Counted from the first letter of the stretch, positions 22,086-35,331 are shown. The stretch: DNA of 64,000 bases from Anaerolineae bacterium (GCA_049974845.1 JBNGCP010000006.1:22386-86385); one strand, 5' to 3'. Program-made: numbers and translations. Notes: generated from the sequence alone by a model not told the origin.

Positions 22086-22991
22086 ATGACCGAGGAACAG
22101 GAGGAGCGCAAGCCGCTAGGAGAGACCTACGGCGGTCAGGCTGTGATTGAGGGCGTCCTGATGCGTGGCAAGTACAACGCCGCCATTGCTGTGCGGCGAC
22201 CCGACGGCGAGGTGATCGTCAAGCACGAATCCTTGGGAGCCCTATACCACGGGCCGATCAGCAAGATCCCTTTTCTGCGGGGTATCCCGATGCTCTGGGA
22301 TTCGCTGGGGTTGGGGATGCGAGCGCTCTTCTTCTCCGCTGAGATCGTCGGTCAGGAGGAGGATCCGGAGTTCTCGATGTCCGGCGGCCTCGGCTTGGCC
22401 ACCGGCGCGTTCTCCCTGCTCCTGGGGATCGGCCTCTTTATGATCCTTCCGTCATTTATTGCCGGCCTGCTCGTGAAGGAGCGGGCCTTCGCCTTCAATC
22501 TCGTCGAGGGTCTGATACGCCTCATCCTCCTGGTCGGCTACATCGCGGCGATCGGGCGGACCGCGGAGATCCGGCGCGTCTTTGCCTATCATGGGGCTGA
22601 GCACAAGACGATCAACGCTCACGAGGACGGCGCGCCCCTGACGGTCGAAGGGGTACGCCCCTACTCGCGCCAGCACGCGCGATGCGGCACGGCCTTCTTG
22701 TTGACCGTCGTGCTCATCTCGGTGCTCGTCCTGTCGCCCCTGGGGCGTCCCTCGCTCCTCCTTCGCGTGGCCTCGAGACTCGCCTTGCTCCCGGTCATCA
22801 CCGGCATCTCCTACGAAGTGCTGCGTTTTACAGGACGTCATAAGGAGAGCCCCCTGATCCGCGCCCTCATCGCGCCCAATCTGGCTCTGCAACGGTTGAC
22901 CACCCAGGAGCCCGACGACTCGATGATCGAGGTCGCCATCTTGGCCCTAAAGGCTGTGCTCAAGGGCGAACGAGAGGCAGTGCAAGCCTAG
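22086..22991 (+). CDS. DUF1385 (YqhQ-like) membrane-associated protein
   Basis: It has the conserved YHGAEHKTINAHE segment and hydrophobic helices. Confidence 0.6.
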   Translation: MTEEQEERKPLGETYGGQAVIEGVLMRGKYNAAIAVRRPDGEVIVKHESLGALYHGPISKIPFLRGIPMLWDSLGLGMRALFFSAEIVGQEEDPEFSMSGGLGLATGAFSLLLGIGLFMILPSFIAGLLVKERAFAFNLVEGLIRLILLVGYIAAIGRTAEIRRVFAYHGAEHKTINAHEDGAPLTVEGVRPYSRQHARCGTAFLLTVVLISVLVLSPLGRPSLLLRVASRLALLPVITGISYEVLRFTGRHKESPLIRALIAPNLALQRLTTQEPDDSMIEVAILALKAVLKGEREAVQA

Positions 22992-23131
22992 GGCATCCCG
23001 TTCACGAACGATCTGGACCCGCGACGCGTCACGGGCAGACGCAATGGGCCAGGTTGCGCATAGGCTACCCCGCCAAATGGCCCTCCCTACTCCAGACCTG
23101 TCGATTATCATGCCGACAATATCGGATTGGG

Positions 23132-23188
23132 GAGACGCTAGCATACCGCATCGCAGCTTCCATCGCGCTTCGGGTATGCTAGCGTCTC
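23132..23188 (+). terminator. Strong hairpin in long intergenic region (gagacgctagcatacc...ggtatgctagcgtctc)
   Basis: A 16-bp perfect inverted repeat with a ~25-nt loop lies 140 nt after the DUF1385 stop and 270 nt beyond the stop of the minus-strand methyltransferase gene. Confidence 0.4.
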
Positions 23189-23458
23189 GGTCTTTCCCAG
23201 GCCTCTCAGAGCGCAGCTGGCAAGGGATGTGTGTGGGGGTGGAACATCGTGATACCGGATCCGCCCAAGCGACGTGACAGAAAGGCTCTCCTGTACGTAG
23301 AAGAGCTGAAACATCGGATCCTCGCCGATCCAAGCCTCCCCGCTCGCTATGATGGACGTCATTGAGGCTGGGCTCTGGCGCCCGGTCCAACAGGAGCTAG
23401 AAACGCGGGGATTCACCGCCAACAACTTCGTCTGGTGGGCCTTCGACCCCCAGCACGC

Positions 23459-24202
23459 CTAAGGCTTGTGCGCGCGGATGAGAAAGAAGGGCAGGTGCGC
23501 GACCTGCGACCACGGCCCCGAACGAGTAGCGGCAGCACTCCGGATCTCAGCCAACCTCGACCGCTCTTCCACCGTCAGAGGCAGGTCCTCAAGGTAGTCA
23601 AAGCGCGAGAGAGCGGGCGGAAAAAGGGTATCGAAGAGCGAGATGTGCACGCTAAACCCTCGCTCCGCGAGAAGCCCGGGCAGCTTTCGACCGACATAAG
23701 GATCGGCGCCGGCACGCGTCAGCGCGCTGATCCATAGCGGACGGCTGCGGATCTCAGGTGGATGCTCGATCATCCCATCGTAGTCGGGTTCCAGCGCGAC
23801 GAAGGCCCCGCCGGGCTGCAACACGCGCCAGATCTCATCCACCGCGAGGGACAAAGGGCTGACCCACAGCAGGGTCACCTGCGAGAACACCAAATCAAAG
23901 ACCCCATCGGCGACCGGCAGCCGGGTGGCATCCGCGGCAAGCTTCGAGGTCCCCCTGGGACTCTGCCACGATCGCAGCGCCGCAAACGCAAGGTCTAATG
24001 CGACCACCCGCCCCCGCGACCGTCGTCGAAGCTCCGCAGCAACCGTACCGAACCCAGTCCCGAGGTCGAGAACGCGGTTGCGGCGAGCCACGTGGACCCG
24101 CCGCAACAAAACCGACCGAGCCGGCGCAAGCCATTCAGCCTGCTGTGCCATCAGCGCCGGCTCCGGCAGCGCAAAGCTGAGGCCGCTATTCATTCGCGCC
24201 AA
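23459..24202 (-). CDS. Class I SAM-dependent methyltransferase
   Basis: It has the SAM-binding motif I (VLDLGTGFGTV) and motif post-I (VVALDL). It is the last gene of the minus-strand rSAM cluster. Confidence 0.75.
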   Translation of the reverse strand: MARMNSGLSFALPEPALMAQQAEWLAPARSVLLRRVHVARRNRVLDLGTGFGTVAAELRRRSRGRVVALDLAFAALRSWQSPRGTSKLAADATRLPVADGVFDLVFSQVTLLWVSPLSLAVDEIWRVLQPGGAFVALEPDYDGMIEHPPEIRSRPLWISALTRAGADPYVGRKLPGLLAERGFSVHISLFDTLFPPALSRFDYLEDLPLTVEERSRLAEIRSAAATRSGPWSQVAHLPFFLIRAHKP

Positions 24203-24208
24203 CGCACG

Positions 24209-26113
24209 CTAACGTCCGCCCCCCGCGCAGGCGCAGGCACACGCACAACCGGCGCAGGCGCACGCGCAGCTGCTGCGACCACCACCACCGCTCCCGCCGC
24301 TGCTCTTTGAGGCCTTGGACATCGCCTCAAAGACGTCACCGGTGACACGATCGACGCCACTAAGGTCGACGAAACCACCCTTAGCACCGGGGATGTTCAT
24401 CGAGCCAGGCAGAACCGCCGCAGCCATGCTGCCCATCGTCGTCTCCGCCCAACCGGAAAAAGAGGCCGCGACGTCGCCGAAGGAGGTCCGCCCCCCGCCA
24501 CTGGGGCGCGCGGTCGGCGCCCCGCCGCCGGCGCCCGAGGTCACGGGTCCGCCGGTCGGGCGCGCCCACATGGGCCAGTAGTGGTAACCTCCATGCGTCA
24601 AGACCGTCGGGTAATTGTCGTTCATCATAACCCAGGGCAGATACTTATCGAGGTATTGCTCGCGTTCCCGGACCTCACCCATCTGTCTGGCTTGCTCCAT
24701 CGCCCGCGAGATCACGCGTTCGTAGTACTCCCGGGTCTGCGCGAGGTCGAACCCCTCCATCTTGGCAGCGGTGGACGTGATCAGGCCCTCCATCGCGGCG
24801 GTGAAATCAATCTTCTCCACCGGCTTGTTCGGATTGCGCTCCAACTGATCCAGGAAATCTTGCTCGTAGGCGTGAATGACCGTGCCCGCCTGTTGAGCCG
24901 CCGTTTGACGGGCATTGTGGCGCTTCTTCTTCGAGCGTCGCAGGTCGGGATCGTCCCACATCTTGAATGCATCGTTGACCTTCACGGTCAACGGATCCGG
25001 CTTCACGAGCGTCACGATGCCTTTTTCCAGCAGACCAAACATGGCCAGGGTGAGAATCTTGTGGAGCGGCAACTCCAACAGGATGGCAGCCTCAGGTGCC
25101 GTGAGCCCGCGCTTGATACCGCCACCCTCCACCTGGGCGATGGGTGGCAGATAGTCGTGGGGCTTTTTCTTCAGACGGACTTCATTGAAGATGACAAGCG
25201 CAATCAGCACCGGAATAGCTGGCAGCATCAGAATGGGCGCAGCAAAGAAGAGCAGGATCGCGCCGCCCGCGAGGATAGCAAAGACGGTGCAGCCCGTCCC
25301 GCCCGAGAACCGGAAGAAGAGCAAAGCCAGGAGGCCCACATTGATGGCCCCAAGGATGAGCCGGGCGCCGGGATTGTCGGCAAGCCACCGGTTCACCAGT
25401 TCGATCAACGTCATGCGCTCGACGCGTGTCATCACCCGCTGCGGGAAAGACACCCCGACCATGCGCGGCCCTGTGAGGCTGACATCCTCCCATTCCCAGA
25501 GGACAACGGTGTGGCCCTGGAACAAGGCCCTGTCTGTAAAGGGCTCCTGCTGATAAAGGGCTTCCTCCGGTTCCACGCCTTCAGGCAAGTGAACGGCGAT
25601 TGCAAGCTCGCTCGCACCACGAACGGATTCCTCGTCAAACCAGGTGGGCGTGATGCGGAACGAGGCAAAATCTCGGTTCGTCGTGTCCTGATAGACCATA
25701 TCCGGCATCGTGGCCTCGAAGTGGAGCGTCGCCGTCTCACCCGGTGAGATGGCCATTTCGCGCAGGTGAATCTCGACGCCGATGTCGACATACTCGGAGG
25801 TCCGAATATCGTTCAAGGTGACGCCATCGATGCTGGCTGTCATGTTGTCGATAGTGTAGTCCCTGTGCGGCAGACCAATGTCGACAATGTCGATGGGCGA
25901 TCCCTGGTTTTCGAACGTGATGTCATAGACCAACCGGGCCGAGGCATCGGGTTGGACGTAGACCTGCAATTCCATTCTCGGCACAGCGAACACGTAGCTC
26001 TGTGCGCTTGCCGGATGGATGCTCGCCCCCAGCAACACAAGCACGACAAAGAGTGACACTACCAAAGAGAGGCGTTTAGACATATCCGTGTTCACCTCCG
26101 TGCGATGCTCCAT
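24209..26113 (-). CDS. Large membrane protein A, DUF2207-like architecture, with C-terminal Gly-rich/Cys-Ala tail (…GGSGGGGRSSCACACAGCACACACAGGGR)
   Basis: It is 634 aa with a signal/TM, a ~230-aa extracytoplasmic domain, a TM cluster, a ~300-aa cytoplasmic domain (YHYWP) and a Gly-rich segment ending in a 7-Cys alternating Cys-Ala tail. It is a paralog of 26140..27915. Confidence 0.7.
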   Translation of the reverse strand: MEHRTEVNTDMSKRLSLVVSLFVVLVLLGASIHPASAQSYVFAVPRMELQVYVQPDASARLVYDITFENQGSPIDIVDIGLPHRDYTIDNMTASIDGVTLNDIRTSEYVDIGVEIHLREMAISPGETATLHFEATMPDMVYQDTTNRDFASFRITPTWFDEESVRGASELAIAVHLPEGVEPEEALYQQEPFTDRALFQGHTVVLWEWEDVSLTGPRMVGVSFPQRVMTRVERMTLIELVNRWLADNPGARLILGAINVGLLALLFFRFSGGTGCTVFAILAGGAILLFFAAPILMLPAIPVLIALVIFNEVRLKKKPHDYLPPIAQVEGGGIKRGLTAPEAAILLELPLHKILTLAMFGLLEKGIVTLVKPDPLTVKVNDAFKMWDDPDLRRSKKKRHNARQTAAQQAGTVIHAYEQDFLDQLERNPNKPVEKIDFTAAMEGLITSTAAKMEGFDLAQTREYYERVISRAMEQARQMGEVREREQYLDKYLPWVMMNDNYPTVLTHGGYHYWPMWARPTGGPVTSGAGGGAPTARPSGGGRTSFGDVAASFSGWAETTMGSMAAAVLPGSMNIPGAKGGFVDLSGVDRVTGDVFEAMSKASKSSGGSGGGGRSSCACACAGCACACACAGGGR

Positions 26114-26139
26114 CAGAACCCAACGCTATACCCCCGACC

Positions 26140-27915
26140 TCAGCGCCCGCCACCGGCACAGGCACAGGCGCAGGCGCAGCCTGCGCACGCACAGGCACAA
26201 CTGCTCCCCGAGCCTCCCCGCGAGACGGTCACACCAGTGGACGGTTTGCTGAGCGTGGTCGGCAGAATGGCAGCTGCCATCCCGCCCATCGTCGTCTCCG
26301 CCCAGCCGGCAAAGGAAGCCGACACATCACCAAAGGTGGTGGACGGTCGCCCTGATCCACCCGAGACAGCCCCTCCACCGATGCTACTTCCGGCAGTGCT
26401 CACCGTACCGCGAGCTTGTCGCGCCCACACGGGCCAGTAATGGTAACCGCCCAGCCTCAGGGCCGGCCTGTAGTTCGGCCGCATCATGACCCAAGGGAGG
26501 TACTTATCGAGATAGGCCTCACGCTGCTCGATCTCGCCAATGCTCGCAGCCTGCTCCATCGCACGATCGATCACCCGACGATAGTACTCCTGGGTATCGG
26601 AGAGATCGAAACCCTCCATCTTCGCTGCGACGCCGTCGACGAGCTTCTGCATCGGGTTGACGACGGGCAGCTCCTTGACCGGCTTGCCGGGATGGACCTC
26701 GATCAGGTCCAGGAACGGATGCTCGTACTCGTGGATCACGGTGCCCTTCTGTTGGGCCACCTGACGGCGATAGCGCTTCCGGCTCTCCGCGTCCTTTAAT
26801 TCGGGCTTGCCTTCCACCTGAAAGTCGTCGACGACCTCCAGGGTGAGAGGATCTGCATCAGTCTGGCGCACGAGTCCCTTTTCCAGCATTCCAAAGACCA
26901 CCAGCCCCAGCACCTTGGTTAGGGGCAGCTCCAGGACGATCGCGGCTTCCGGAGCCGTAAGTCCGCGCTTGATGCCGCCGCCCTCAACTTGTGCGATCGG
27001 GGGAAGATAGTTGGGTTTGAGGCCGCGGATGACGGCGCGAACGATGACGAAGATAAAGAAGGCGGGAATGGCAACGGGCAGACAGAACATAAGGATCGCC
27101 CCGATCACGGGAAGCACCCCGCCCAACCATCGTCCAAGCAAATCCCAGAAGGTGACCTCAATGACGTTGGTCATGCCACGTCGGGGGAACGAGACGCCCA
27201 CCCGATAGGCCTCCGTCAACCGGATGTCCTCGTACCGCCAGATCGCCACGACTCGCCCCTCATCGTCCAGCACCTTGTCGTCGAAAGGCTCATCCTGGTA
27301 GAGAACCTCGTCGAGCTCGATACTCGGCAGCGTCCTGACCCGAATCTCGACGTCACTCGTGCCCTGCACGAGTTCGCCGTCGAACCAGGTTGGCGTGATC
27401 TGCAGGGAAGCGTTCTCCTCGTTGGTCGTATCGGCATAGACCATCTCAGGCGAGTCAAACTCGAGATGCAGTGTCCCCGTCTCGCCCGCCGGAATAGCGT
27501 ACGGCCCTAGATGGATCTCCACGCCAACGTCGATGTATTCTGAAGGGCGGATGTCCGACACCGGATTGCCGTCGATCGTCGCCACCATCTGATCGACGTC
27601 GTAATCGGCGTTCGGCGTGCCGATATCCACAATGTCGATGGGATCTCCGGAGTTCTCGAACGTGATGTCGTAGACGATGTGGGCGGAGCCATCGGGTTGT
27701 ACAGTTGCACTCAGCAATAGCTCGGGCACGGCGAAGCGGTAAGTCTGCACGTAGGGGCGCGCCAGAACAGTGCCGGCGCCCGAGCCGAGAAGACCCAGGA
27801 GCACAGCCAAGGCCACGACCAGCGCCACAGCCCGCCTTCTGATCGTCGGGGCCACCGTCCTCTCGCGCGTGTCCACCCTTCCGTGGGAGTGTCTATGACC
27901 GGCTGGTCGGGTCAT
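26140..27915 (-). CDS. Large membrane protein B, paralog of A, with identical C-terminal tail SSCACACAGCACACACAGGGR
   Basis: The track ORF extends to 27933, but the probable start is ATG 27915..27913. That ATG overlaps the TGA of the upstream rSAM-like gene by 1 nt. It has the same domain order as protein A; the last 21 aa are identical although encoded by different codons. Confidence 0.7.
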   Translation of the reverse strand: MTRPAGHRHSHGRVDTRERTVAPTIRRRAVALVVALAVLLGLLGSGAGTVLARPYVQTYRFAVPELLLSATVQPDGSAHIVYDITFENSGDPIDIVDIGTPNADYDVDQMVATIDGNPVSDIRPSEYIDVGVEIHLGPYAIPAGETGTLHLEFDSPEMVYADTTNEENASLQITPTWFDGELVQGTSDVEIRVRTLPSIELDEVLYQDEPFDDKVLDDEGRVVAIWRYEDIRLTEAYRVGVSFPRRGMTNVIEVTFWDLLGRWLGGVLPVIGAILMFCLPVAIPAFFIFVIVRAVIRGLKPNYLPPIAQVEGGGIKRGLTAPEAAIVLELPLTKVLGLVVFGMLEKGLVRQTDADPLTLEVVDDFQVEGKPELKDAESRKRYRRQVAQQKGTVIHEYEHPFLDLIEVHPGKPVKELPVVNPMQKLVDGVAAKMEGFDLSDTQEYYRRVIDRAMEQAASIGEIEQREAYLDKYLPWVMMRPNYRPALRLGGYHYWPVWARQARGTVSTAGSSIGGGAVSGGSGRPSTTFGDVSASFAGWAETTMGGMAAAILPTTLSKPSTGVTVSRGGSGSSCACACAGCACACACAGGGR

Positions 27916-29222
27916 CACCCACCTCGGGCCCATCCTTCTGGATCACGCGGGCACGCAGCCGCGCAAATGGCAAGGCCAGGGCAGACCTCGCAGCGGGTCG
28001 GCGCCTCCACGCGCTCGCGATAGTCGCGAAAGACCGCGTCGTTCCAGATCGTGTCCCATGAGTCCCGCAGAAGGTTACCCGCACTCCGGTAGGGCCCACG
28101 GGGTGGGATGACCTCACCGGTGGGCTCGATGCGGACGGCCACGTCCCCAGAGCATCGCGGCCCCTGCAGAATCTGGTCCATCAACGACCTGTTTGGATCC
28201 CTTTCCACCGGCGGATCCCAGATGAACCGTGCGTTGGCCATATCAGCGGTCTCCTCGACGGTCGCAGCCACCTGAGCCATGCCCTCGCGGCTGAAGATAC
28301 CCTCGGCCCGCGCGAGCTGTGGATCCGTCGTCGGATAAGCGATAAAGGAGAGATTGTCAGCGCCATTCGCGATGAGCACGTCCACCGTCGCGTTGATGCG
28401 ATCGAGCGTCGCCTGGACCAAGGGGATCTCGGCCACCGCCGCGATCTGATAAGTCTCCAGCCAATCGAGCACGCTCTGTGCCATAAGGAAATCGCCCTCG
28501 CCGCAGAGGCTATCGTGAATCTCTTGGTCGGCCGCAGCATAGAGGAAGGTCACGTGGTCGACGCCGGTCTGACGAAGGTCGGGCAGGAATCCTTCCACGG
28601 CCAAGGTTGTCGCACGTCCCCTGACACCGGCGATCATGCCCAGATCTTCCGCTCGCTCCACAACCCTTAGCACATCGGTCGGCTCACAGCCGTATGGGAC
28701 GAGGATCGTCACGTGCGGGATCCCCACTTCCCAAAGGCGGTCGAGAATGGGTATAATCACCTTCGGCTCCACCAGTGGCACCGTCGCCTGCAGCGGAGCG
28801 ATGAGCTCGGCAGCATAGGGGGAGAGCGAGGCATCCTCCAGATTGAAGACCGGATACGTATCACCGGGCGCCCTAAGTCGCTCAATGAGAGCGTGCACCT
28901 TCGCGATGTCCCCGCGTACGATCTCCTCCTTGGCGCCGGAGAAGTGCGCTCTCAACCTCTCAACGATCTCGTCGGGGGTTCGGCCCTCAAGCAGGCCCTT
29001 GGCAATGACCACACCCGACGCCGTCAAACGAGCGGCAGCCATCGCGTTGGCGATCAGCATCCCGCTGCCATCCTTCTCCACCCGCAGGTGGAATCGGGCA
29101 AACGCGTCGTCGGTCTCCTGCATCACGTGATAGAGCCCGGGCTCTACGGGCGCGGTGGGTTCGGCGCGCTCAAAGGACAGCAAGCGCTTCAACCAGTCCT
29201 GGGCCATAGACGACCTCCTCAC
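27915..29222 (-). CDS. Degenerate radical-SAM/SPASM-like protein (CxxxCxxC lost, SPASM Cys cluster retained)
   Basis: It is 435 aa and aligns along its length with the 30581..32086 rSAM protein (PGLY...RV.EDGSG N-domain, IPHVTIL core). Where the paralog has YACNNACPHC it has no Cys triad. It retains the C-terminal GPRCSGD...CEVCPGLAICAAACP cluster. Confidence 0.65.
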   Translation of the reverse strand: MRRSSMAQDWLKRLLSFERAEPTAPVEPGLYHVMQETDDAFARFHLRVEKDGSGMLIANAMAAARLTASGVVIAKGLLEGRTPDEIVERLRAHFSGAKEEIVRGDIAKVHALIERLRAPGDTYPVFNLEDASLSPYAAELIAPLQATVPLVEPKVIIPILDRLWEVGIPHVTILVPYGCEPTDVLRVVERAEDLGMIAGVRGRATTLAVEGFLPDLRQTGVDHVTFLYAAADQEIHDSLCGEGDFLMAQSVLDWLETYQIAAVAEIPLVQATLDRINATVDVLIANGADNLSFIAYPTTDPQLARAEGIFSREGMAQVAATVEETADMANARFIWDPPVERDPNRSLMDQILQGPRCSGDVAVRIEPTGEVIPPRGPYRSAGNLLRDSWDTIWNDAVFRDYRERVEAPTRCEVCPGLAICAAACPRDPEGWARGG

Positions 29223-29225
29223 AAC

Positions 29226-29942
29226 CTATGCTTGTTGGGGTTGTTGGTATTTTCTTTCGAACAGATCGGGCTCGTAAGCCGCACGTCGCCCCGGACATTC
29301 CCCCCGCGGGCAGAGCTGGCAGCTCTCAAACCGCTCCTCCGTCGGGAATCGAATGCCGGAGATGGTCTTGTTTGGGATCATCAGAAAGCTCTCGGTCAGC
29401 TGCACCCCAATCGCCGCCTCGGGATCCCCGAGAATCCGGAAAAGGGGACGCTGCTGCCGGATCGGCCAATCGGCCAAGGAGCCCGGAGCCATCGTCGACG
29501 TGCGTCCCAAGGCATAGCACTCGTACAGATGGGCGTTAAGCGCCTGCGTCGCCGCCCCCAGCGCGGCCTCCTTGATCGCGTCAGCCCAGTAACGATAGAG
29601 CATATCGTCGAGGCCGTCACTCCAGGTCTGCAGTTCCGCCCCGCACGTGGCGATATAGACGAAAACCCGATGAGCCACCGCAAGGTTGACTCGCAATACG
29701 CGGCTGTGCAGCCTCACGCCGTCGACGGTCACACTCTCGTCGGACCTGTCGTCGACGTAGGCGAGCTTGTACATGGCCTTAGGCCTGGCGATCGCCGCGG
29801 CTGTCTTGAGCAGCCCGGCAAACTCGGCAAGCTGCTGGCTGCCGTCCTTGAGCCTCAGACGTTTGGCCAATGAGCCAAGGTCAGGCTGAAAAACAATGTC
29901 ATCGAGTATGTAAGGTCTCTCGCCGTTATCGATTGCGTTCAT
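29226..29942 (-). CDS. MetH activation-domain-like (AdoMet-binding) protein with C-terminal CxxCxxxxC motif
   Basis: It is 238 aa. The segment LTESFLMIPNKTISGIRF and the preceding PGSLADWP resemble the conserved core of the B12-dependent methionine synthase reactivation domain (E. coli LTESFAMWPGASVSGWYF). The C-terminus is SCQLCPRGECPG. Confidence 0.5.
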   Translation of the reverse strand: MNAIDNGERPYILDDIVFQPDLGSLAKRLRLKDGSQQLAEFAGLLKTAAAIARPKAMYKLAYVDDRSDESVTVDGVRLHSRVLRVNLAVAHRVFVYIATCGAELQTWSDGLDDMLYRYWADAIKEAALGAATQALNAHLYECYALGRTSTMAPGSLADWPIRQQRPLFRILGDPEAAIGVQLTESFLMIPNKTISGIRFPTEERFESCQLCPRGECPGRRAAYEPDLFERKYQQPQQA

Positions 29943-29986
29943 TGTTGTCTGCTATGGTTCCGTTCTGTGCGTGAAAGGTTCTCGGG

Positions 29987-30523
29987 TCACGATCGGTGGG
30001 CCACCAACAGCCCTCGAATCAGGGCCAACAGCCCCAGGCCGATGAAGAGGATCGGCCACCCGATGAAGTCCAGGCCAAGACCGCTGATATTCAGGATCAG
30101 TTCAAAGAAGACCAGGCCCACGAGAAACATGATCAGCCCGATGTTCACCAGGGTCGAACCGGTCCGTATGGCGCTCTCCCTACGCTTGCTCCAACCATAG
30201 AGCATCTCTGCCAAGCCTATACCAGTTGGGGTGATCAGCGCCCACACGTAGGCCCAACTGGTCCAGTGCCCTGTGACACTTTGATAGAGCAGCACCAATC
30301 CTACCATCGTGACAATCCCGCTCAACATTGCGAAAGGCTCACTCAAGGGCGTATCGGCGGCAAGGGCGAAGAGGAAGATCAAGACGCCGGGCAGAATGAC
30401 AAAGAAGGGCCACAGGAAAGCGCCGATGTTGAGCTGCAAAAACTGCCCGACCAGGGCCAGGACCCCCAGGACGATCAGAGCAATACCGAGTGCCCGAACA
30501 AACGCTCTTGGTCCCTCAAACAT
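29987..30523 (-). CDS. Integral membrane protein (5-6 TM), unknown function
   Basis: It is a 178-aa, very hydrophobic protein inside the rSAM cluster. Confidence 0.55.
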   Translation of the reverse strand: MFEGPRAFVRALGIALIVLGVLALVGQFLQLNIGAFLWPFFVILPGVLIFLFALAADTPLSEPFAMLSGIVTMVGLVLLYQSVTGHWTSWAYVWALITPTGIGLAEMLYGWSKRRESAIRTGSTLVNIGLIMFLVGLVFFELILNISGLGLDFIGWPILFIGLGLLALIRGLLVAHRS

Positions 30524-30580
30524 GCCTTTCCTCCTGCGTGATTTGGAAACCCGGCATCCAAAGCGCCCCGCGAACCTGCC

Positions 30581-32086
30581 CTAGCGTCGCGTCCCCGTCA
30601 GGACGCCCTCCTGTGTCGCAGATCGATCGTCGGTGAATGACACGACGCGGCCCGACCCCCGTCGGGTAGGGCGAGAACACCCGCGCTCAGCCGCCCGAAT
30701 CCCGGCCCGCGCTTCTCGCTCCAACCGGCATCCCCCCCCGCACATCTCCAGGTCCGGACAATCCCAGCAGGCCTCCGGCAACCCCGCGGCTTGCGGGTCC
30801 TCCTCACGATTTCGGAAGCTGAGGAAGAGCTCGCTATTCCATATACTCTCCCACGGATCGGCAAGGATGTTGCCTGCGGTGACGTAGTAAGACTGACAAG
30901 GGAGGACGACGCCGTTGGGCTCGATGCAGATCGAGTATTCGGCTGCATTGCAGCGCTTGGGCGGCAGGCCCAGCGCCACCGGGGACAAGCGGCAGTAGTC
31001 GGTCACCGTGTACCAGAGGAACCGCATGTTGAGCCGCTCGGCCTCGTCCCTCACCGCAGCGAGCAGGGCCGCCATGTCCTCAGCCGGAATGGCAGCGGGC
31101 GTACTCGTCCCTCCTCCGGCATGGATAATACCGTTCATCGCGAAGGTCTGTAGACCTAACTCATGGAGAAACCTGACGGTATCGAGGACGTGATCCTGAT
31201 TTTGCCGGGTAACGGTCGTATTGGTGATGGTGTGTATGCCGGCGTCCAGCGCGCTCTGAATCCCCGCAACCGTCTCTTCGAAAGCGCCCTCCACACCCAC
31301 CATCTCATCATGGACGGAGCGGTAGCACGACTCCAGCGTGATCTGCACGTGGTTGAGCCCTGCTGCTGCCAGCGAGGTCGTCAACACTCGATCCGCGAGG
31401 CGACGTCCGTTGCTGTTCATGCCGACGATCAGACCGAGTCCGTCGGCATACCGAACCAACTGCGCCAGGGCGGGATGGAGTGTCGGCTCACCGCCGGTCA
31501 GGATGACGTGAGGAATGCCGATGTCCAGGATCCGATCGAAGACCCGCATCCAGTCGCGCGTGGTGAGCGAAGCCATCGCGAACCGTTCCTGCTCGTTATA
31601 GCAATGTGGGCAGGCATTGTTGCAGGCATAGGTGAGCGCGACGTCCACCTTATAGGGCGCCGTGACGGGCGTGCTGAAGATCGGCTGAAAATCCACAAGC
31701 GGCCCTAGGGCGCACGTCGGACAGATATTGTCGGTCTCTCGCAAACGCCGAACCATATCATACATCGTGGCGACCGCCTCCGAGAGCTCTCCTTTCGTGA
31801 CACCGCGGTACCGACGAATCATCCGGTCTCGCGCCTCGGCCTGCGGGACGTCGTCCAGCGCTAGCTTGACCATCTCGACGGCAGTCGCATTAAGATGGAT
31901 CACGTCGGTGACGTCGATAAAGAGCACGCCCGAGCCATCCTCGTTGACGCGTAGATGCACGCGGCGCTGCCCCCCGTCCAAGACCAAGGGATAGCTGTAG
32001 AGGCCGGGAGCCATTGCCACCGACCCAGGCTGCAACAGAGCCCGGACGGTAGTCATCAGACGATGCCACTCCGACGATAGATTCAT
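30581..32086 (-). CDS. Radical SAM/SPASM-domain maturase with N-terminal extension
   Basis: It has the canonical CxxxCxxC (YACNNACPHCYNE), a GGEPTL SAM-binding motif and a C-terminal SPASM region (CQSYY...CWDCPDLEMCGGGC). The ~120-aa N-terminal domain is shared with the degenerate paralog. Confidence 0.85.
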   Translation of the reverse strand: MNLSSEWHRLMTTVRALLQPGSVAMAPGLYSYPLVLDGGQRRVHLRVNEDGSGVLFIDVTDVIHLNATAVEMVKLALDDVPQAEARDRMIRRYRGVTKGELSEAVATMYDMVRRLRETDNICPTCALGPLVDFQPIFSTPVTAPYKVDVALTYACNNACPHCYNEQERFAMASLTTRDWMRVFDRILDIGIPHVILTGGEPTLHPALAQLVRYADGLGLIVGMNSNGRRLADRVLTTSLAAAGLNHVQITLESCYRSVHDEMVGVEGAFEETVAGIQSALDAGIHTITNTTVTRQNQDHVLDTVRFLHELGLQTFAMNGIIHAGGGTSTPAAIPAEDMAALLAAVRDEAERLNMRFLWYTVTDYCRLSPVALGLPPKRCNAAEYSICIEPNGVVLPCQSYYVTAGNILADPWESIWNSELFLSFRNREEDPQAAGLPEACWDCPDLEMCGGGCRLEREARAGIRAAERGCSRPTRRGSGRVVSFTDDRSATQEGVLTGTRR

Positions 32087-32316
32087 AATTCTCTATGTAT
32101 GTTTACGTACAAAGCGGCGCCGGGTTGCAGCTCGGCCTTGACACAGAGCACCCCCGAGCCGTAACCGAGGCTGCGCCAACCTTCCCCCCAGCGATGTCCC
32201 CGACGTCTAAGTCGGCATTAACGGACTGATCCACCTGTTGAACGCGAGAGAAAAACGGAGGAGATGGGGGTCACCGCGTTGGCAGGAGCGCGACAGAAAG
32301 AGCACGAGCGCAGCGT

Positions 32317-32724
32317 TCACCACTTTGGGGCTTCTTCGATCTGGTAAGAGGCCCCACAGTACGGACACTCGACGAAAATGGCGCCCGCCTTGACCTCAAG
32401 GTTGCCCTTGCTCAGGGCGCCGCCACAGGACCGACACTTCAGCTGCTCTAGCTGAACATCGCCCGACAGGTCGATCTTCTGTACGTGGGTGTGTTCCTCA
32501 TGTTTGGGGCGAACGCGCGTCAGATAGATGAGCACGCCGGCCGCAGCGAAAAGGATCAGACCGACGACGATGCGTATAACCTGTCCCTGCGATCCCACCA
32601 CAAACATAAACCCGAAAAAGGCCACCACCGCGGCAATCAGGTAGGTCAAGAGCTCCATCGCGTTCTCCTCCACAGGCGTTTTGGGTTGCAGCAGGTAGTA
32701 TAGTCGATCCGCCATGCTCGTCAA
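32317..32724 (-). CDS. Small membrane protein with C-terminal zinc-ribbon (CxxC-x15-CxxC)
   Basis: It is 135 aa with two TM helices and then CRSCGG...CPYCG. It is the first gene of the minus-strand cluster; its start may be the internal Met (MELLTYL). Confidence 0.55.
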   Translation of the reverse strand: MTSMADRLYYLLQPKTPVEENAMELLTYLIAAVVAFFGFMFVVGSQGQVIRIVVGLILFAAAGVLIYLTRVRPKHEEHTHVQKIDLSGDVQLEQLKCRSCGGALSKGNLEVKAGAIFVECPYCGASYQIEEAPKW

Positions 32725-32816
32725 CGATCAGCCCAGTGAGATACAGCAGCGGGGGGGTCAGCAACCTCCCCGCAATCCCTGCGTCACACAGGCAGATGAG
32801 CCGAAGTCTCCCCGTG

Positions 32817-33979
32817 TCAGGAACCACCGGGTTTGCTGCGGAGGCCTGCCAGCGCGGTCACAAAACCCAGGAACAGGGCGGCGGCACCCGTGAGGTAGGG
32901 CAGGCTGAGATGCAGATCGAAGGCGTAGCCGGCGCAGAGGGGGCCGATCACCCTCGCGAGGCTGATCGCGGTGTTCCCCATCCCCATCATCGCGCCCTGT
33001 TGCCGCGAGGCCCGCTTGGAGACAAGCGCCAGCAGCACCAAGTAGCCGGCGGCCCCTGCGATCATCGAGCCCTTGGCCACGCTGGCCTCGCCGAAGCGCT
33101 TCGTGAGCGGGCCTGTCAGCAGCCCCTTTCCGAAGGTCGTGACGACGCCGACGACCACGAGGATCGTGTCCACGCGCTCGGGTCCGAAGCCAAACCTGTC
33201 GGCCGCATAGAGGCCAAAGACCGCCTCGAAGTTGGCCAGGCCGAGGCTGGCGATGAAGAGGAGCAGAAGCGTAAATCCCACGGGGCCGGTGAACGCTTCC
33301 CAAAGCCGCCGCGGGTCCAGCGCAGGCTGCGTCGCAGCTTGCGCCGCGACAGCCTCTGCGGTCGCGAGCCCGTCGCCTTGAGCAACGTCACGCGACGAAA
33401 CGGAGGTCCGGGGCGTCTCAGGCAGGAGGAGCATCACCAACAAGAGGCCAACAAAGGCCAACGCCGCCCCGATGAAAAACGGGAGCGAGAGGGAAGCGCC
33501 CCCGAGCCAACCGCCCAGGCCCGGTCCCAGGATCACGCCCAGGCCGGCCGCCGATCCGAGGGCGCCAATCCCGCCACCGCGATCCTCCTCCGAGGTCGTG
33601 TCACTGACGTAGGCCATGGCCGTGGGCATCGTAGCCGCGGTCAGCACACCGGAGAGCGCGCGGGCGCCGATGAGCATCCACAGCTTGTGCGCCAACCCCA
33701 TCAACACCATTGACAGCCCATACCCGAAGATGCCGACCGCGAGCACGCGCTTGCGCCCGATGCGGCCCGACCAAGCCCCCCACATCGGCGAGAAGAGAAG
33801 CTCCGTCAGGGCAGCCACCGCCACCAGGATCCCCATCGCGCTGCCGCTGCCCCCCAACGCCTCGATGTAGAGTAGAAGGGGAAGATGGGGATGATGACGC
33901 CGTAGCCCAGCATCACGACGACGAGGACGAAGGAGAGGATGATAAGTGAACGCTGCTCAGTCCGGCTTCCCGCTGTCAT
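32817..33979 (-). pseudogene. MFS transporter disrupted by a 5-bp tandem duplication (GTAGAGTAGA at 33867-33876)
   Basis: ATG 33979 encodes an MFS N-terminus (…GYGVIIPIFPFY) and then shifts frame. The frame containing the 346-aa ORF 32817..33857 continues …IEALGGSGSAMGILVA. Removing one TCTAC copy restores FYIEALGG. Confidence 0.65.
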
Positions 33980-33997: not shown

Positions 33998-35331
33998 TCA
34001 GGCGGGGGTCGCCTCGGCACCGTCCTCGAGGATGACCTCGCCCGCATCGCCGTCGACGGTGACGGTCATCCCGCTTTGAATGCGCTTCGTAGCGACGCCG
34101 GTGCCCAGGACAGCAGGGATGCCGTACTCACGGGCGACGATGGAGCCGTGGCTCAGCGGCCCACCGATGTTGGTGACGATGCCCGAGGCCATCGCGAAGA
34201 GCGGCGTCCAGGCTGGCGTGGTGACGTCCGCCACGAAGATGTCCCCGTGCTGCATCTGATCGAAGTCCTCGGGACCGTGCAGCACCCGCGCGCACCCCGT
34301 CACCCGGCCCGGGCTGGCGCCGAGCCCTTGAGCGCGGTCTCTTTCTGTTCCTCCGCGCTTGTCGGGACGTAAGCGTCCGTCTTGAGGCCCATCACCCGTT
34401 CCTTGTACGGCAACTGTGGCGGAGGCGTGACGCGCTTCTCGGCGCGCCACGTCATCTTTCGCTCCTTAACGCGCTCTGCGTACGTCCCCAGCGGCTCATC
34501 GCGGTCGAGGGCGGCAGCTGCGGTCTCCACTTCGTCCCGCTCAAGCCAGAAGATGTCGTCCGGCGCCTCAAGCGCTCCGGCGTCGACCATGCGCTGACCC
34601 AGCTCCTGCAACATCTGTCGGATGTAGGGATAGGCCAGACCGATATCAAAGATGCTGTCCTCACGCACCACTGTGAAGGTCTGCGCCCATTCCAGTGTCT
34701 TGTTGAAGATTTTGCGTCTCAGGCCACCAACCCTCTCCCGCACCGCCGCGATCGCCTCCTCGCGCTCCTCGCGCAGTCGCTGCTGGCGCGCATAGGGGTT
34801 CTGCCCCTCACCCCGAAGGAAGATGATGAAAGTTCGCAATGGTGGGGTCGGGTCGTCAGCCGGGACGGGTTTGGCGAAGTCAAGATCGTAAATACTGTGC
34901 CCGTACTCGTCCAGATAGGCTCGGAAGCGCTCTAACCATCCCTGCCACGGATCGGCGCGGACGCCGGAGGGAACACCCTTGTGCTTCAGCCCATCTACCA
35001 GCTCGGAGATCAGGGCACGTGTCAGGTAAGCCGTCAGACCCTCATACTCCCGGCACCATTCGGCCAGATCGTAAAGCGCTTTCTCCGCCTGGATGGGCAG
35101 GCTGTCCGCACCGAGGAGGAACGTCGGTGCCGGCGGATCCTGGGCGCCCTTGCGCTTGATCAGCTTCTGGTAGACTGTCGTGAAGAGCATCTCGGAGCCT
35201 GCAGCGATTCCAAGGGTGTCGACCTGCAGCGCGGTGATGGCGCGGGCCTGCACGATGGCGAACTCTCCCTCGACCATCGCCCACTCGATATCACGGGGGT
35301 CGCCGAAGAGCTCCTCGATCTCGCGGCCCAA
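33998..35331 (-). pseudogene. PEP-utilising enzyme (PEP synthase/rifampin-phosphotransferase-like) remnant, N-terminally truncated and frameshifted
   Basis: The 343-aa ORF carries the end of the ATP-grasp/PPDK_N domain (DIEWAMVEGEFAIVQARAIT). The 150-aa ORF carries the PEP-utiliser mobile domain (GGPLSHGSIVAREYGIPAV). The two are joined by a -1 shift at a G-run (ctcaagggctcggc versus expected ctcaaggggctcggc). About 330 N-terminal residues are missing. Confidence 0.65.

What the first reader, a model, noticed from the sequence alone, without database searches (positions are those of the whole stretch)
23459..32724. Candidate protein-tail modification system: two rSAM/SPASM-type enzymes plus two large membrane proteins ending in SSCACACAGCACACACAGGGR
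Eight co-directional, tightly spaced genes on the minus strand form an apparent operon. Its members are a Zn-ribbon membrane protein, a canonical radical-SAM/SPASM enzyme, a polytopic membrane protein, a MetH-activation-domain-like protein, a degenerate rSAM/SPASM paralog, two paralogous ~600-aa DUF2207-like membrane proteins and a SAM methyltransferase. The two large proteins end in a Gly-rich segment followed by the identical 7-Cys alternating Cys-Ala tail. SPASM-domain rSAM enzymes classically install thioether (sactionine or ranthionine-type) or other crosslinks on Cys-rich peptides. Here the apparent substrate is the C-terminal tail of a large membrane protein, not a small precursor peptide. 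Both rSAM proteins share an extra ~120-aa N-terminal domain that could act as a recognition element. I do not recall this architecture as a described RiPP or PTM family. It is somewhat reminiscent of the GRRM or CxxX-repeat systems, but has a Cys-Ala periodicity and full-length protein substrates.
Basis: partly seen in the sequence, partly recalled or inferred. Interest (0 to 1): 0.92.

Follow-up and report, generated by a model that had tools for sequence, protein, structure and literature searches.

The report
Radical-SAM system for Cys-Ala protein tails
Two membrane proteins in this window end in an invariant Cys-Ala tail, and a dedicated radical-SAM enzyme and methyltransferase travel with that tail across 29 named phyla of bacteria and archaea, pointing to an undescribed modification of a full-length protein.

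Summary
Eight co-directional genes lie on the minus strand at 23459-32724. Two paralogous membrane proteins both end in CACACAGCACACACAGGGR.

The tail is not low-complexity drift. It is invariant in about 118 of 120 homologues down to 47% identity, while synonymous sites are saturated. A tail-only DNA pattern found at least 120 species genomes, including Planctomycetota, Acidobacteriota and Asgard archaea. The motif sits at the exact C-terminus in 122 of 123 reading frames.

Linkage to the radical-SAM (rSAM) enzyme holds in both directions: 267 of 300 tail carriers against 3 at random, and 81/93 and 57/75 in the two upper bands of the reverse count. Five apparent exceptions carry the enzyme elsewhere in the genome.

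The enzyme has a PqqD-type recognition domain (49 of 68 orthologues) and a complete SPASM cysteine set. The tail proteins are remote DUF2207 relatives (hhalign 98.8%). Their tail is modelled as disordered and cytoplasmic.

The conserved core is tail protein, rSAM/SPASM enzyme and methyltransferase, usually with a zinc-ribbon protein. The other genes are clade-specific.

No Pfam, NCBIfam or PADLOC model, and no paper found, describes the system. The chemistry, most likely thioether cross-links, is inferred and not shown.

The parts
32317..32724 (-). P0008: small membrane protein with a C-terminal CxxC...CxxC zinc ribbon. The likely true start is at 32658, giving 113 aa.
   Evidence: Translation. 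Weak Zn_ribbon hits. Homologues lie upstream of the tail gene in 89 of 129 loci. The relatives' genes encode 113 aa. An archaeal Atlas cluster with a similar modelled structure (TM 0.50/0.57) carries Zn_ribbon_TFIIB on all members, which may be a fusion.
30581..32086 (-). P0007: active radical-SAM/SPASM enzyme with an N-terminal PqqD-like recognition domain. The RRE spans about 31727-32014, the CxxxCxxC motif 31601-31624 and the SPASM cysteines 30728-30994.
   Evidence: Pfam Radical_SAM 4.8e-25 and SPASM 6.4e-10. In 68 orthologues C155, C159, C162, C365, C379, C397, C440, C443, C449 and C453 are invariant. PqqD is hit in 49/68 orthologues. The closest solved relatives are SkfB and PqqE.
29987..30523 (-). 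P0006: polytopic membrane protein of 178 aa, a clade-specific accessory.
   Evidence: Translation. No family. Found in only 2 of 129 loci.
29226..29942 (-). P0005: 238-aa protein with weak likeness to the methionine-synthase activation domain and a C-terminal CxxC...C motif, a clade-specific accessory.
   Evidence: Met_synt_B12 at 23.8 bits, below the cut-off of 25. Found in only 4 of 129 loci. The PDB sequence search was not significant.
27915..29222 (-). P0004: pseudo-radical-SAM paralogue. It keeps the RRE-like N-terminus and the last CxxCx5Cx3C motif, but lacks CxxxCxxC and two SPASM cysteines.
   Evidence: BLASTP against P0007 gives 27% identity, E 1e-36, with a gap across the CxxxCxxC segment. 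SPASM 5e-5, PqqD 1.2e-3 and lasso PqqD 3.9e-5. An equivalent pseudo-rSAM lies about 1.5 kb downstream of the tail gene in type-A Anaerolineae loci.
26140..27933 (-). P0003: short-type tail protein. It has a signal peptide, an outer beta-sandwich, one transmembrane helix, a cytoplasmic winged-helix/helical domain, a Ser/Gly linker and the tail. The likely start is at 27828.
   Evidence: AlphaFold2 model with pLDDT 80.9. hhalign against DUF2207 gives 98.8%. The database copy begins at residue 36.
26143..26199 (-). Tail of P0003: CACACAGCACACACAGGGR, the proposed modification site.
24209..26113 (-). P0002: long-type tail protein, a paralogue of P0003 at 54% identity. The likely start is at 26083.
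   Evidence: Both types sit on the same contigs in relatives.
24212..24268 (-). Tail of P0002: CACACAGCACACACAGGGR.
23459..24202 (-). P0001: class I SAM-dependent methyltransferase, part of the conserved core.
   Evidence: Methyltransf_11 2.1e-18. Orthologues lie downstream in bacterial and Asgard loci. No NCBIfam model reaches its cut-off.

Best explanation
This is a dedicated maturation system for the C-terminal tail of a membrane protein.

The substrate. The tail proteins are distant DUF2207 relatives. They have a Sec signal peptide, an extracytoplasmic beta-sandwich, a membrane helix and a cytoplasmic winged-helix/helical domain. A flexible Ser/Gly linker then presents the invariant motif (CA)n-G-(CA)m-GGGR in the cytoplasm.

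The proposed steps (all inferred).
1. The rSAM/SPASM enzyme docks through its N-terminal PqqD-type recognition domain on the conserved segment ahead of the linker.
2. It uses 5'-deoxyadenosyl radical chemistry and its two auxiliary clusters to modify the Cys-Ala repeat covalently. The most likely product is a set of thioether links from Cys sulfur to a carbon of Ala or Gly (sactionine-like or lanthionine-like).
3. The product stays attached to the protein.
4. The co-conserved class I methyltransferase adds a methyl group at a later step.
5. The pseudo-rSAM paralogue, which has no SAM cluster, acts as a non-catalytic recognition or scaffold partner.

What is shown: the gene content, the invariance of the tail, the two-way genomic linkage, the RRE and the cluster cysteines. 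What is supported only by a model and the charge pattern: the cytoplasmic, disordered position of the tail. What is inferred: that the tail is the substrate, and the chemistry.
For: 1. Tail invariance under protein-level selection.
- About 118 of 120 homologues down to 47% identity end identically while the preceding linker varies.
- 115 of 120 hits to an archaeal query end in (CA)3-5 G (CA)3 GGGR.
- All synonymous codons, all six Arg codons and all three stop codons are used, and 133 of 133 DNA versions are distinct.
- The two tails in this genome differ at nearly all third positions.

2. Position. The motif is at the exact C-terminus in 122 of 123 reading frames found by a tail-only pattern, across many phyla and Asgard archaea.

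3. Linkage.
- rSAM within 8 kb of the tail-protein domain: 138/156, 63/75, 57/63 and 3/3 by band, against 3 at random.
- Reverse count: 81/93 and 57/75 in the upper bands, 12/129 among more distant SPASM enzymes, fewer than 3 at random.
- The five exceptions have the orthologue elsewhere in the genome.

4. Enzyme features.
- PqqD-type RRE in 49/68 orthologues.
- Invariant CxxxCxxC plus seven SPASM cysteines.
- The nearest solved relatives, SkfB and PqqE, are both peptide cross-linkers.

5. Accessibility.
- The model has a single transmembrane helix at 262-305, a folded domain at 327-509 and a disordered tail.
- Net charge is +1.5 after the membrane segment and -0.3 before it.
- N-termini look like Sec signal peptides.

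6. No alternative peptide substrate. The rSAM gene abuts the tail codons, and no candidate ORF lies in the window's 230-nt gap.

7. The methyltransferase is kept from Asgard archaea to Chloroflexota.
Against: - No mass, spectroscopic or genetic datum shows that the tail is modified.
- Seven cysteines on a flexible tail could simply bind metal or an iron-sulfur cluster.
- The only possible acceptor residues are Ala and Gly. I know of no characterised sactionine or ranthionine system with such a core (from memory), so the thioether proposal is an analogy.
- The rSAM scores far below the cut-off of every curated maturase family, so the chemistry cannot be transferred by homology.
- The roles of the methyltransferase, the zinc-ribbon protein and the pseudo-rSAM are guesses.
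- The topology of the long paralogue P0002, which has an extra hydrophobic segment, is not settled.
Confidence: 0.55

Rival explanations
1. The tail is a ligand set for a metal or iron-sulfur centre. The rSAM/SPASM enzyme and methyltransferase then build, insert or tailor a cluster or cofactor held by the tail, so the tail acts as a scaffold or protein-bound cofactor site and is not cross-linked.
For: There are six to eight cysteines in strict alternation, split by one Gly, which would place the thiols on one face of a hairpin (reading of the sequence). The usual total of seven Cys is kept in both tail types, as 4+3 or 3+4. The carriers are mostly lineages known as anaerobes (the physiology is from general knowledge).
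Against: Metal-binding tails usually vary in length and composition (general knowledge), whereas here the Ala, Gly and Arg positions are also invariant. The enzyme carries a peptide-recognition domain typical of peptide maturases. The conserved operon holds no metal chaperone or cluster-assembly gene.
Confidence: 0.2
2. The large protein is an oversized leader. After modification the tail is cleaved off and released as a small RiPP-like product.
For: It follows the general RiPP logic: an RRE-bearing rSAM with a Cys-rich core at a C-terminus. One related locus has a CvpA/Colicin_V-family gene downstream.
Against: No protease or exporter is conserved with the system in any lineage examined. The roughly 500-residue body is itself conserved, with a well-folded outer domain and cytoplasmic domain, which argues for a function of the whole protein.
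Confidence: 0.07
3. The rSAM acts on something other than the tail, such as a lipid, a cofactor or the zinc-ribbon protein. It is co-inherited with the tail protein only because they work in one membrane complex.
For: The highest NCBIfam scores of the rSAM include cofactor enzymes (AhbD, NirJ), all far below their cut-offs. Co-localisation alone does not identify a substrate.
Against: The RRE points to a peptide or protein substrate. The zinc-ribbon gene was not found in the Asgard loci, which still keep tail, rSAM and methyltransferase. The most strongly conserved element of the partner protein is the tail itself.
Confidence: 0.13

Closest known systems
Sactipeptide and ranthipeptide maturases (SkfB, AlbA, CteB/SCIFF, PapB)
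   Same: An rSAM/SPASM enzyme with an N-terminal PqqD-like RRE acts on a Cys-rich sequence. SkfB is the closest solved relative by sequence (2.8e-18), and the SPASM cysteine set is complete.
   Different: The substrate is the C-terminus of a membrane protein of about 510-660 aa, not a peptide of 40-60 aa. No protease or exporter is present. The only possible acceptors are Ala and Gly. The enzyme scores far below the family cut-offs (StsB 91 against 625, SkfB 80 against 300, AlbA 79 against 850). No cross-link has been shown.
QhpD/QhpC and anaerobic sulfatase-maturating enzymes (SPASM enzymes that modify proteins that stay proteins)
   Same: Radical-SAM/SPASM modification of cysteines in a polypeptide that remains a functional protein. 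QhpD forms Cys thioethers in QhpC, and anSME converts Cys or Ser to formylglycine (established knowledge, not tested here).
   Different: There is no sulfatase or amine-dehydrogenase context. The C/S-x-P/A-x-R motif of anSME substrates is absent from the tail (sequence). The substrate here is a repeat at the extreme C-terminus of a DUF2207-like membrane protein, and a methyltransferase is co-conserved.
DUF2207 (PF09972; YciQ, SMU.243) membrane proteins
   Same: Signal peptide, outer beta-domain, membrane helix, winged-helix region and a Ser/Gly-rich C-terminal region. hhalign gives 98.8%, E 5e-17, over 328 columns. UniRef names the Ornatilinea orthologue as DUF2207.
   Different: Pfam's model does not detect these proteins. 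The genuine DUF2207 proteins fetched from related Anaerolineae genomes that could be read to their C-terminus (5 of 8) end in poly-Gly (...GGGGGGGGFG), not in the Cys-Ala motif. The function of DUF2207 is itself unknown; one paper reports a stress and biofilm phenotype (PMC10457818, abstract).
Repeat-peptide rSAM systems defined by comparative genomics (ACGX-repeat, CxxX-repeat, GG-Bacteroidales with a pseudo-rSAM, His-Xaa-Ser)
   Same: A short Cys- or His-containing repeat is paired with a SPASM maturase, sometimes with a catalytically dead rSAM paralogue (recalled from the TIGRFAMs descriptions). An HxS-repeat effector matured by an rSAM was recently given an antiphage role (PMC13128918, abstract).
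   Different: The family cut-offs are not met (ACGX 61 against 400, HxsC 71-74 against 268). The repeat has a two-residue period, is invariant in sequence, and is fused to a large membrane protein. PADLOC gives no specific hit.

Membership tests
Radical SAM superfamily (PF04055) | CxxxCxxC motif that binds the SAM-cleaving [4Fe-4S] cluster | tested here: met
   P0007 has C155/C159/C162, invariant in 68 orthologues. Pfam 4.8e-25, above the cut-off.
Radical SAM superfamily (PF04055), applied to P0004 | CxxxCxxC motif | tested here: not met
   The segment is deleted in the pairwise alignment with P0007, and there is no Radical_SAM Pfam hit. P0004 is a pseudo-rSAM.
SPASM subfamily (PF13186 / TIGR04085) | C-terminal seven-cysteine motif for two auxiliary clusters | tested here: met
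   P0007 scores 39.6 bits for SPASM against a cut-off of 21.5. C365, C379, C397, C440, C443, C449 and C453 are invariant. P0004 keeps only the last four-Cys block and one further Cys.
RRE / PqqD-like domain (PF05402) | N-terminal PqqD-fold peptide-recognition domain | tested here: met
   49 of 68 rSAM orthologues hit PqqD, best E 4.1e-9. P0004 gives 1.2e-3 in Pfam and 3.9e-5 for the lasso PqqD model. P0007 itself is below threshold but aligns with P0004 over residues 2-120.
DUF2207 (PF09972) | Match to the Pfam model above its gathering score | tested here: not met
   There was no hit at E <= 0.01 (P0002, P0003) or <= 0.1 (ten others) in 12 tail proteins from several phyla. Remote homology is nevertheless supported by hhalign at 98.8%.
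Sactipeptide / ranthipeptide systems | Small leader-core precursor peptide encoded next to the maturase | tested here: not met
   The partner is a protein of about 510-660 aa. The rSAM gene abuts it. There is no peptide ORF in the window's gap.
Sactipeptide / ranthipeptide systems | Cys-sulfur to carbon thioether cross-links in the product | not testable with these tools
   This needs mass spectrometry or NMR of the modified tail.
Curated SPASM maturase equivalogs (PqqE, AhbD, GeoRSP, MftC, SkfB, AlbA, StsB, ACGX, HxsC) | Score above the NCBIfam cut-off | tested here: not met
   The best score is 129 bits against a cut-off of 500 (AhbD). All others are also below their cut-offs, for the window, Ornatilinea and Heimdall enzymes.
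Anaerobic sulfatase-maturating enzyme substrates | C/S-x-P/A-x-R motif at the modified residue | tested here: not met
   The tail reads (CA)n G (CA)m GGGR, and no Cys has Pro or Ala at +2 together with Arg at +4.
Methionine-synthase activation domain (PF02965), applied to P0005 | Match above the gathering score | tested here: inconclusive
   23.8 bits against a cut-off of 25, over 50 residues only. The precomputed hit on a relative is 'faint'. The PDB sequence search gave E 0.84.
Known anti-phage defence systems (PADLOC) | Specific model hit | tested here: not met
   There were only generic rSAM and methyltransferase hits (viperin 62 bits, mad2 32 bits), and none for the tail proteins.

The most novel reading that the evidence does not exclude
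The invariant Cys-Ala tail is converted by radical chemistry into a structure not yet described. Candidates are a ladder of Cys-to-Ala thioethers made without dehydration (a radical route to lanthionine- or sactionine-type links) and a protein-bound sulfur-rich cofactor or cluster site. The product would stay tethered to the cytoplasmic face of a DUF2207-superfamily membrane protein. The system would be ancient and shared by bacteria and archaea, including Asgard lineages.
Probability: 0.3. Interest if true: 0.95.

Novelty: new variant of a known kind. Interest (0 to 1): 0.85.

Why it matters
- **New substrate class.** RRE-guided rSAM/SPASM maturases are known almost only from small secreted peptides. 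Here the same logic seems to be applied to the tail of a full-length, widely conserved membrane protein that stays in the cell.
- **A tight constraint to explain.** The motif is invariant from Chloroflexota to Asgard archaea, an unusually tight constraint for a tail of 15-21 residues. That implies a precise chemical or structural product.
- **Possible payoffs.** Solving it could reveal new radical chemistry on Ala or Gly carbons or a new protein-bound cofactor. It could also give the first functional handle on the large and unexplained DUF2207 superfamily and its odd C-terminal tails.
- **Testable now.** Cultured carriers exist: Ornatilinea apprima P3M-1 (tail protein WP_075064617.1, rSAM WP_075064616.1) and Leptolinea sp. 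HRD-7.

Tried and rejected
- **Complex prediction** of P0007 with residues 520-597 of P0003: no verdict (score 0.01). This is no evidence either way.
- **Foldseek on the whole P0003 model**: it matched only the outer beta-sandwich, to the N-domains of M1 aminopeptidases and to ribophorin I. No function follows.
- **Foldseek on the cytoplasmic domain**: nothing below E 0.001.
- **VIA-align on the cytoplasmic domain**: GOLPH3/Vps74 at Z 7.3 and 6.6, below the level at which a fold match can be trusted. Kept only as a lead.
- **Family scans of the tail proteins:** Pfam and NCBIfam on tail proteins from several phyla and PADLOC on the window's proteins. No family was found.
- **Literature searches** for the motif, DUF2207, and SPASM with membrane proteins: no description of this system. 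A look-up under a PMC id I recalled for the 2011 Haft and Basu paper found nothing held.
- **Apparent 1222-aa fusion of pseudo-rSAM and tail protein in L028**: rejected, because the two genes are in different frames.
- **Contig joint between the two tails in the read-laying output**: its short side is only 22 letters and the tail DNAs differ, so it is not taken as a real deletion form.
- **Census hits in Thermococci** (6 of 14 genera, lowest score band): not followed up, because no Thermococci locus was at hand.
- **Parts of the operon without cover in the RNA libraries**: no conclusion drawn.


Full report
**1. Observation**

The minus strand of the window between 23459 and 32724 carries eight closely spaced ORFs. 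Translations and family scans give the following:

| Protein | Coordinates | What it is |
|---|---|---|
| P0008 | 32317-32724 | Small membrane protein ending in a CxxC...CxxC zinc ribbon |
| P0007 | 30581-32086 | Radical_SAM 4.8e-25, SPASM 6.4e-10, CxxxCxxC at residues 155-162 |
| P0006 | 29987-30523 | Hydrophobic, no family |
| P0005 | 29226-29942 | Met_synt_B12 at 23.8 bits, just under the cut-off of 25 |
| P0004 | 27915-29222 | SPASM 5e-5, weak PqqD |
| P0003 | 26140-27933 | Tail protein, short type |
| P0002 | 24209-26113 | Tail protein, long type |
| P0001 | 23459-24202 | Class I methyltransferase, 2e-18 |

- P0003 and P0002 both end in SSCACACAGCACACACAGGGR.
- P0004 is a full-length paralogue of P0007 (27% identity, E 1e-36) in which the CxxxCxxC stretch is deleted.
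- A six-frame scan of the whole 4.3-Mb assembly finds such Cys-Ala runs only at these two C-termini.
- The flanking genes are an MFS transporter and a convergent DUF1385 gene, both unrelated.

**2. The tail is under strong protein-level selection**

- A homology search with P0003 returned more than 1000 relatives, nearly all unnamed or 'hypothetical' proteins from Anaerolineae metagenome genomes.
- About 118 of the 120 listed end in exactly CACACAGCACACACAGGGR, down to 47% overall identity, while the Ser/Gly linker just before it varies freely.
- More distant relatives at about 38% identity end in (CA)3-5 G (CA)3 GGGR. Of 120 hits to a Heimdallarchaeal member, 115 do so as well.
- Across 133 tails every synonymous codon is used. 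That includes all six Arg codons and all three stop codons, and no two DNA versions are the same.
- Within this genome the two tails differ at almost every third codon position.

The invariance is therefore a constraint on the peptide. It comes neither from a DNA element nor from recent gene conversion.

**3. Distribution found from the tail alone**

A degenerate DNA pattern encoding only CACACAGCACACA was scanned over one genome per species.

- Most hits are Anaerolineae.
- Others are Planctomycetota, Acidobacteriota/Aminicenantes, Fermentibacteria, Zixibacteria, Coatesbacteria, Hydrogenedentes, Clostridia and proteobacterial bins.
- Asgard archaea are also hit: Heimdall-, Hod- and Promethearchaeota.
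- Two cultured bacteria are among the hits: Ornatilinea apprima P3M-1 and Leptolinea sp. HRD-7.

In 122 of 123 reading frames the motif is followed only by GGGR (once GGGV) and a stop codon. Where the contig allows, the protein is about 510-660 residues long.

Two tail types exist:

- **Type A**, (CA)3-5 G (CA)3 GGGR, is the widespread form.
- **Type B**, (CA)3 G (CA)4 GGGR, is the window's form. It is also seen in Planctomycetota and a few others.

A census over 36,145 genera finds the cytoplasmic domain of P0003 in 549 genera of 29 named phyla. These include Anaerolineae (about 264 of 728), Bathyarchaeia (63 of 191), Thermoplasmata, Asgard archaea and Thermococci (6 of 14, lowest band only, not followed up).

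**4. Linkage to the radical-SAM enzyme**

The loci were fetched by the tail pattern, without reference to any enzyme.

- 114 of 129 loci hold a P0007 homologue at 38-68% identity, 89 hold a P0008 homologue, and 62 hold the methyltransferase by this query.
- Many of the loci without a match simply run off the contig or the 8-kb locus.
- Five loci had enough flank but no rSAM. All five genomes have a strong orthologue elsewhere (E 1e-99 to 1e-120, 43-47% identity).
- The forward census finds the rSAM within 8 kb of the tail-protein domain in 138/156, 63/75, 57/63 and 3/3 carriers by score band, against 3 at random places.
- In the reverse census, rSAM carriers in the two upper bands have the tail-protein domain nearby in 81/93 and 57/75 cases. 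The lower band of more distant SPASM enzymes shows it in 12/129, and random places in fewer than 3.

**5. The conserved core and the accessories**

| Lineage | Gene order |
|---|---|
| Type-A Anaerolineae | zinc ribbon, tail protein, rSAM (starting at or within the tail gene's end), pseudo-rSAM about 1.5 kb on, methyltransferase about 2.7 kb on |
| Asgard archaea, Zixibacteria, Coatesbacteria, some Acidobacteriota | tail protein, rSAM, methyltransferase |
| Type-B loci, including the window | zinc ribbon, rSAM, (accessories), pseudo-rSAM, one or two tail proteins, methyltransferase |

- P0005 and P0006 occur only in the window's close kin, in 4 and 2 of 129 loci.
- One relative has a Ser/Thr kinase inserted in the operon.
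- The core is thus tail protein, rSAM/SPASM enzyme and methyltransferase, usually with the zinc-ribbon protein and often with a pseudo-rSAM.

**6. The enzyme**

- In an alignment of 68 orthologues, C155, C159 and C162 and seven SPASM cysteines are invariant.
- All orthologues have an N-terminal extension of about 140 residues. In 49 of 68 it hits Pfam PqqD, the RiPP recognition element (best E 4.1e-9).
- The nearest solved structures by sequence are SkfB, a sactionine synthase, and PqqE.
- Every curated NCBIfam maturase model scores far below its cut-off. This holds for the window, Ornatilinea and Heimdall enzymes.

**7. The tail protein**

- Pfam, NCBIfam and PADLOC find no family.
- A profile of 87 members was compared with five genuine DUF2207 proteins from related Anaerolineae. 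It aligns over 328 columns at 98.8% probability, E 5e-17.
- Those DUF2207 proteins end in poly-Gly tails.
- The ESM Atlas and UniRef naming agree with a DUF2207 relationship.

The AlphaFold2 model (pLDDT 80.9) shows these elements:

| Residues | Element |
|---|---|
| 31-52 | Signal or anchor helix |
| 67-250 | Beta-sandwich |
| 262-305 | One long membrane helix |
| 327-509 | Well-defined domain (pLDDT 92.6 when modelled alone) |
| 534-556 | Helix set within a low-confidence C-terminal region (512-540 and 553-597 have pLDDT below 50) |
| 579-597 | Disordered Cys-Ala tail |

- N-termini across the family look like Sec signal peptides.
- Net charge is +1.5 after the membrane segment and -0.3 before it.
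- The tail is therefore most likely cytoplasmic, where an oxygen-sensitive rSAM can reach it.
- The long paralogue has an extra hydrophobic segment, and its topology is less certain.
- The cytoplasmic domain contains a winged helix. Its best fold match is GOLPH3/Vps74 at Z 7.3, which is only a weak lead.

**8. Mechanism**

The best-supported reading is that the RRE of the rSAM binds the conserved segment ahead of the Ser/Gly linker. The enzyme then modifies the Cys-Ala repeat, the methyltransferase adds a further step, and the pseudo-rSAM serves as a non-catalytic partner. By analogy with the nearest enzyme classes, the likeliest chemistry is thioether formation between Cys sulfur and an Ala or Gly carbon.

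- Shown: gene content, tail invariance, linkage, RRE and cluster motifs.
- Supported only by a model and the charge pattern: the cytoplasmic, disordered position of the tail.
- Inferred: the substrate, the chemistry and the roles of the accessory proteins.

Rivals:

- The tail could be a metal or cluster ligand on which a cofactor is built.
- The tail could be a cleaved RiPP. This is unlikely, because no protease or exporter is conserved.
- The enzyme could act on something else.

**9. Expression and habitat**

Near-identical DNA occurs in crude-oil and oil-field metagenomes. Contigs from a metatranscriptomic library of the same study as the best DNA holder cover much of the operon. Small contigs from two further RNA libraries of a second study cover parts of it. 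Contigs in an RNA library do not prove transcription, so this is only a weak hint.

**10. Comparison with what is known, and novelty**

The logic matches RRE-guided SPASM maturases of Cys-rich peptides. It also recalls SPASM enzymes that modify proteins, such as QhpD and anSME. It differs in five ways:

- the substrate is the tail of a large DUF2207-superfamily membrane protein;
- the repeat is invariant and has a two-residue period;
- a methyltransferase is co-conserved;
- no export or cleavage genes are present;
- the system is spread across bacteria and archaea.

No curated model and no paper found describes it. I rate it a new variant of a known kind. There is a substantial chance that the chemistry is categorically new.

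Noticed in passing
L130, L133-L136 (related Anaerolineae genomes): Genuine DUF2207 proteins in related genera end in a Ser/Gly linker followed by poly-Gly (...GGGGGGGGGGFG or FR), where the window's family has the Cys-Ala motif. PF09972 was not found in the window's genome or the 12 same-genus genomes searched. The tails may be alternative versions of one functional element.
   Followed up: partly
L001:5952-7250: A Ser/Thr protein kinase gene (Pkinase) is inserted between the rSAM and the small membrane protein in a related operon, and a CvpA/Colicin_V-family gene follows the methyltransferase.
   Followed up: no
window 26398-27015 (P0003 residues 306-512): The cytoplasmic domain folds with high confidence (pLDDT 92.6). 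Its best structural matches are GOLPH3 and Vps74 (Z 7.3 and 6.6, 146-148 residues aligned), which are phosphoinositide-binding Golgi adaptors. The match is below the level at which it can be trusted.
   Followed up: partly
window 27184-27735 (P0003 residues 67-250): The outer beta-sandwich resembles the N-terminal domain of M1 aminopeptidases/LTA4 hydrolase and the luminal part of ribophorin I of oligosaccharyltransferase (Foldseek E about 1e-8, TM about 0.23).
   Followed up: no
ESM Atlas result for P0003: A Thermoplasmatota cluster of 474-aa proteins with a similar modelled structure (TM 0.50/0.57) carries Zn_ribbon_TFIIB on all members. This suggests that the separate zinc-ribbon protein P0008 is fused to the tail protein in some archaea.
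   Followed up: no
L033 and L076 (one Planctomycetota genome); L110:3453-6988; L095; L084: Some genomes carry two tail proteins, in tandem or at separate loci, with a single rSAM orthologue. The window's paralogue pair is therefore one case of a recurring duplication.
   Followed up: partly
L105:4692-5846: In one Anaerolineaceae locus the reading frame runs on for 39 residues beyond GGGR. It is the only case of 123 in which the motif is not terminal, and may reflect a lost stop codon or an assembly error.
   Followed up: no
census: Thermococci (6 of 14 genera), Thermoprotei and Bathyarchaeia (63 of 191) carry distant relatives of the cytoplasmic domain in the lowest score band. Whether these have the Cys-Ala tail was not checked.
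   Followed up: no
window 22800-33900: The operon occurs nearly identically in crude-oil and oil-field metagenomes from several studies. It is also covered by contigs of a metatranscriptomic library from the same study as the best DNA holder.
   Followed up: partly
window 33998-35331: Upstream of the MFS transporter, two minus-strand ORFs carry PEP-utilising-enzyme pieces (a mobile domain, and a fragment of the PPDK N-terminal domain). They look like parts of one PEP synthase/PPDK-type gene split between overlapping ORFs.
   Followed up: no
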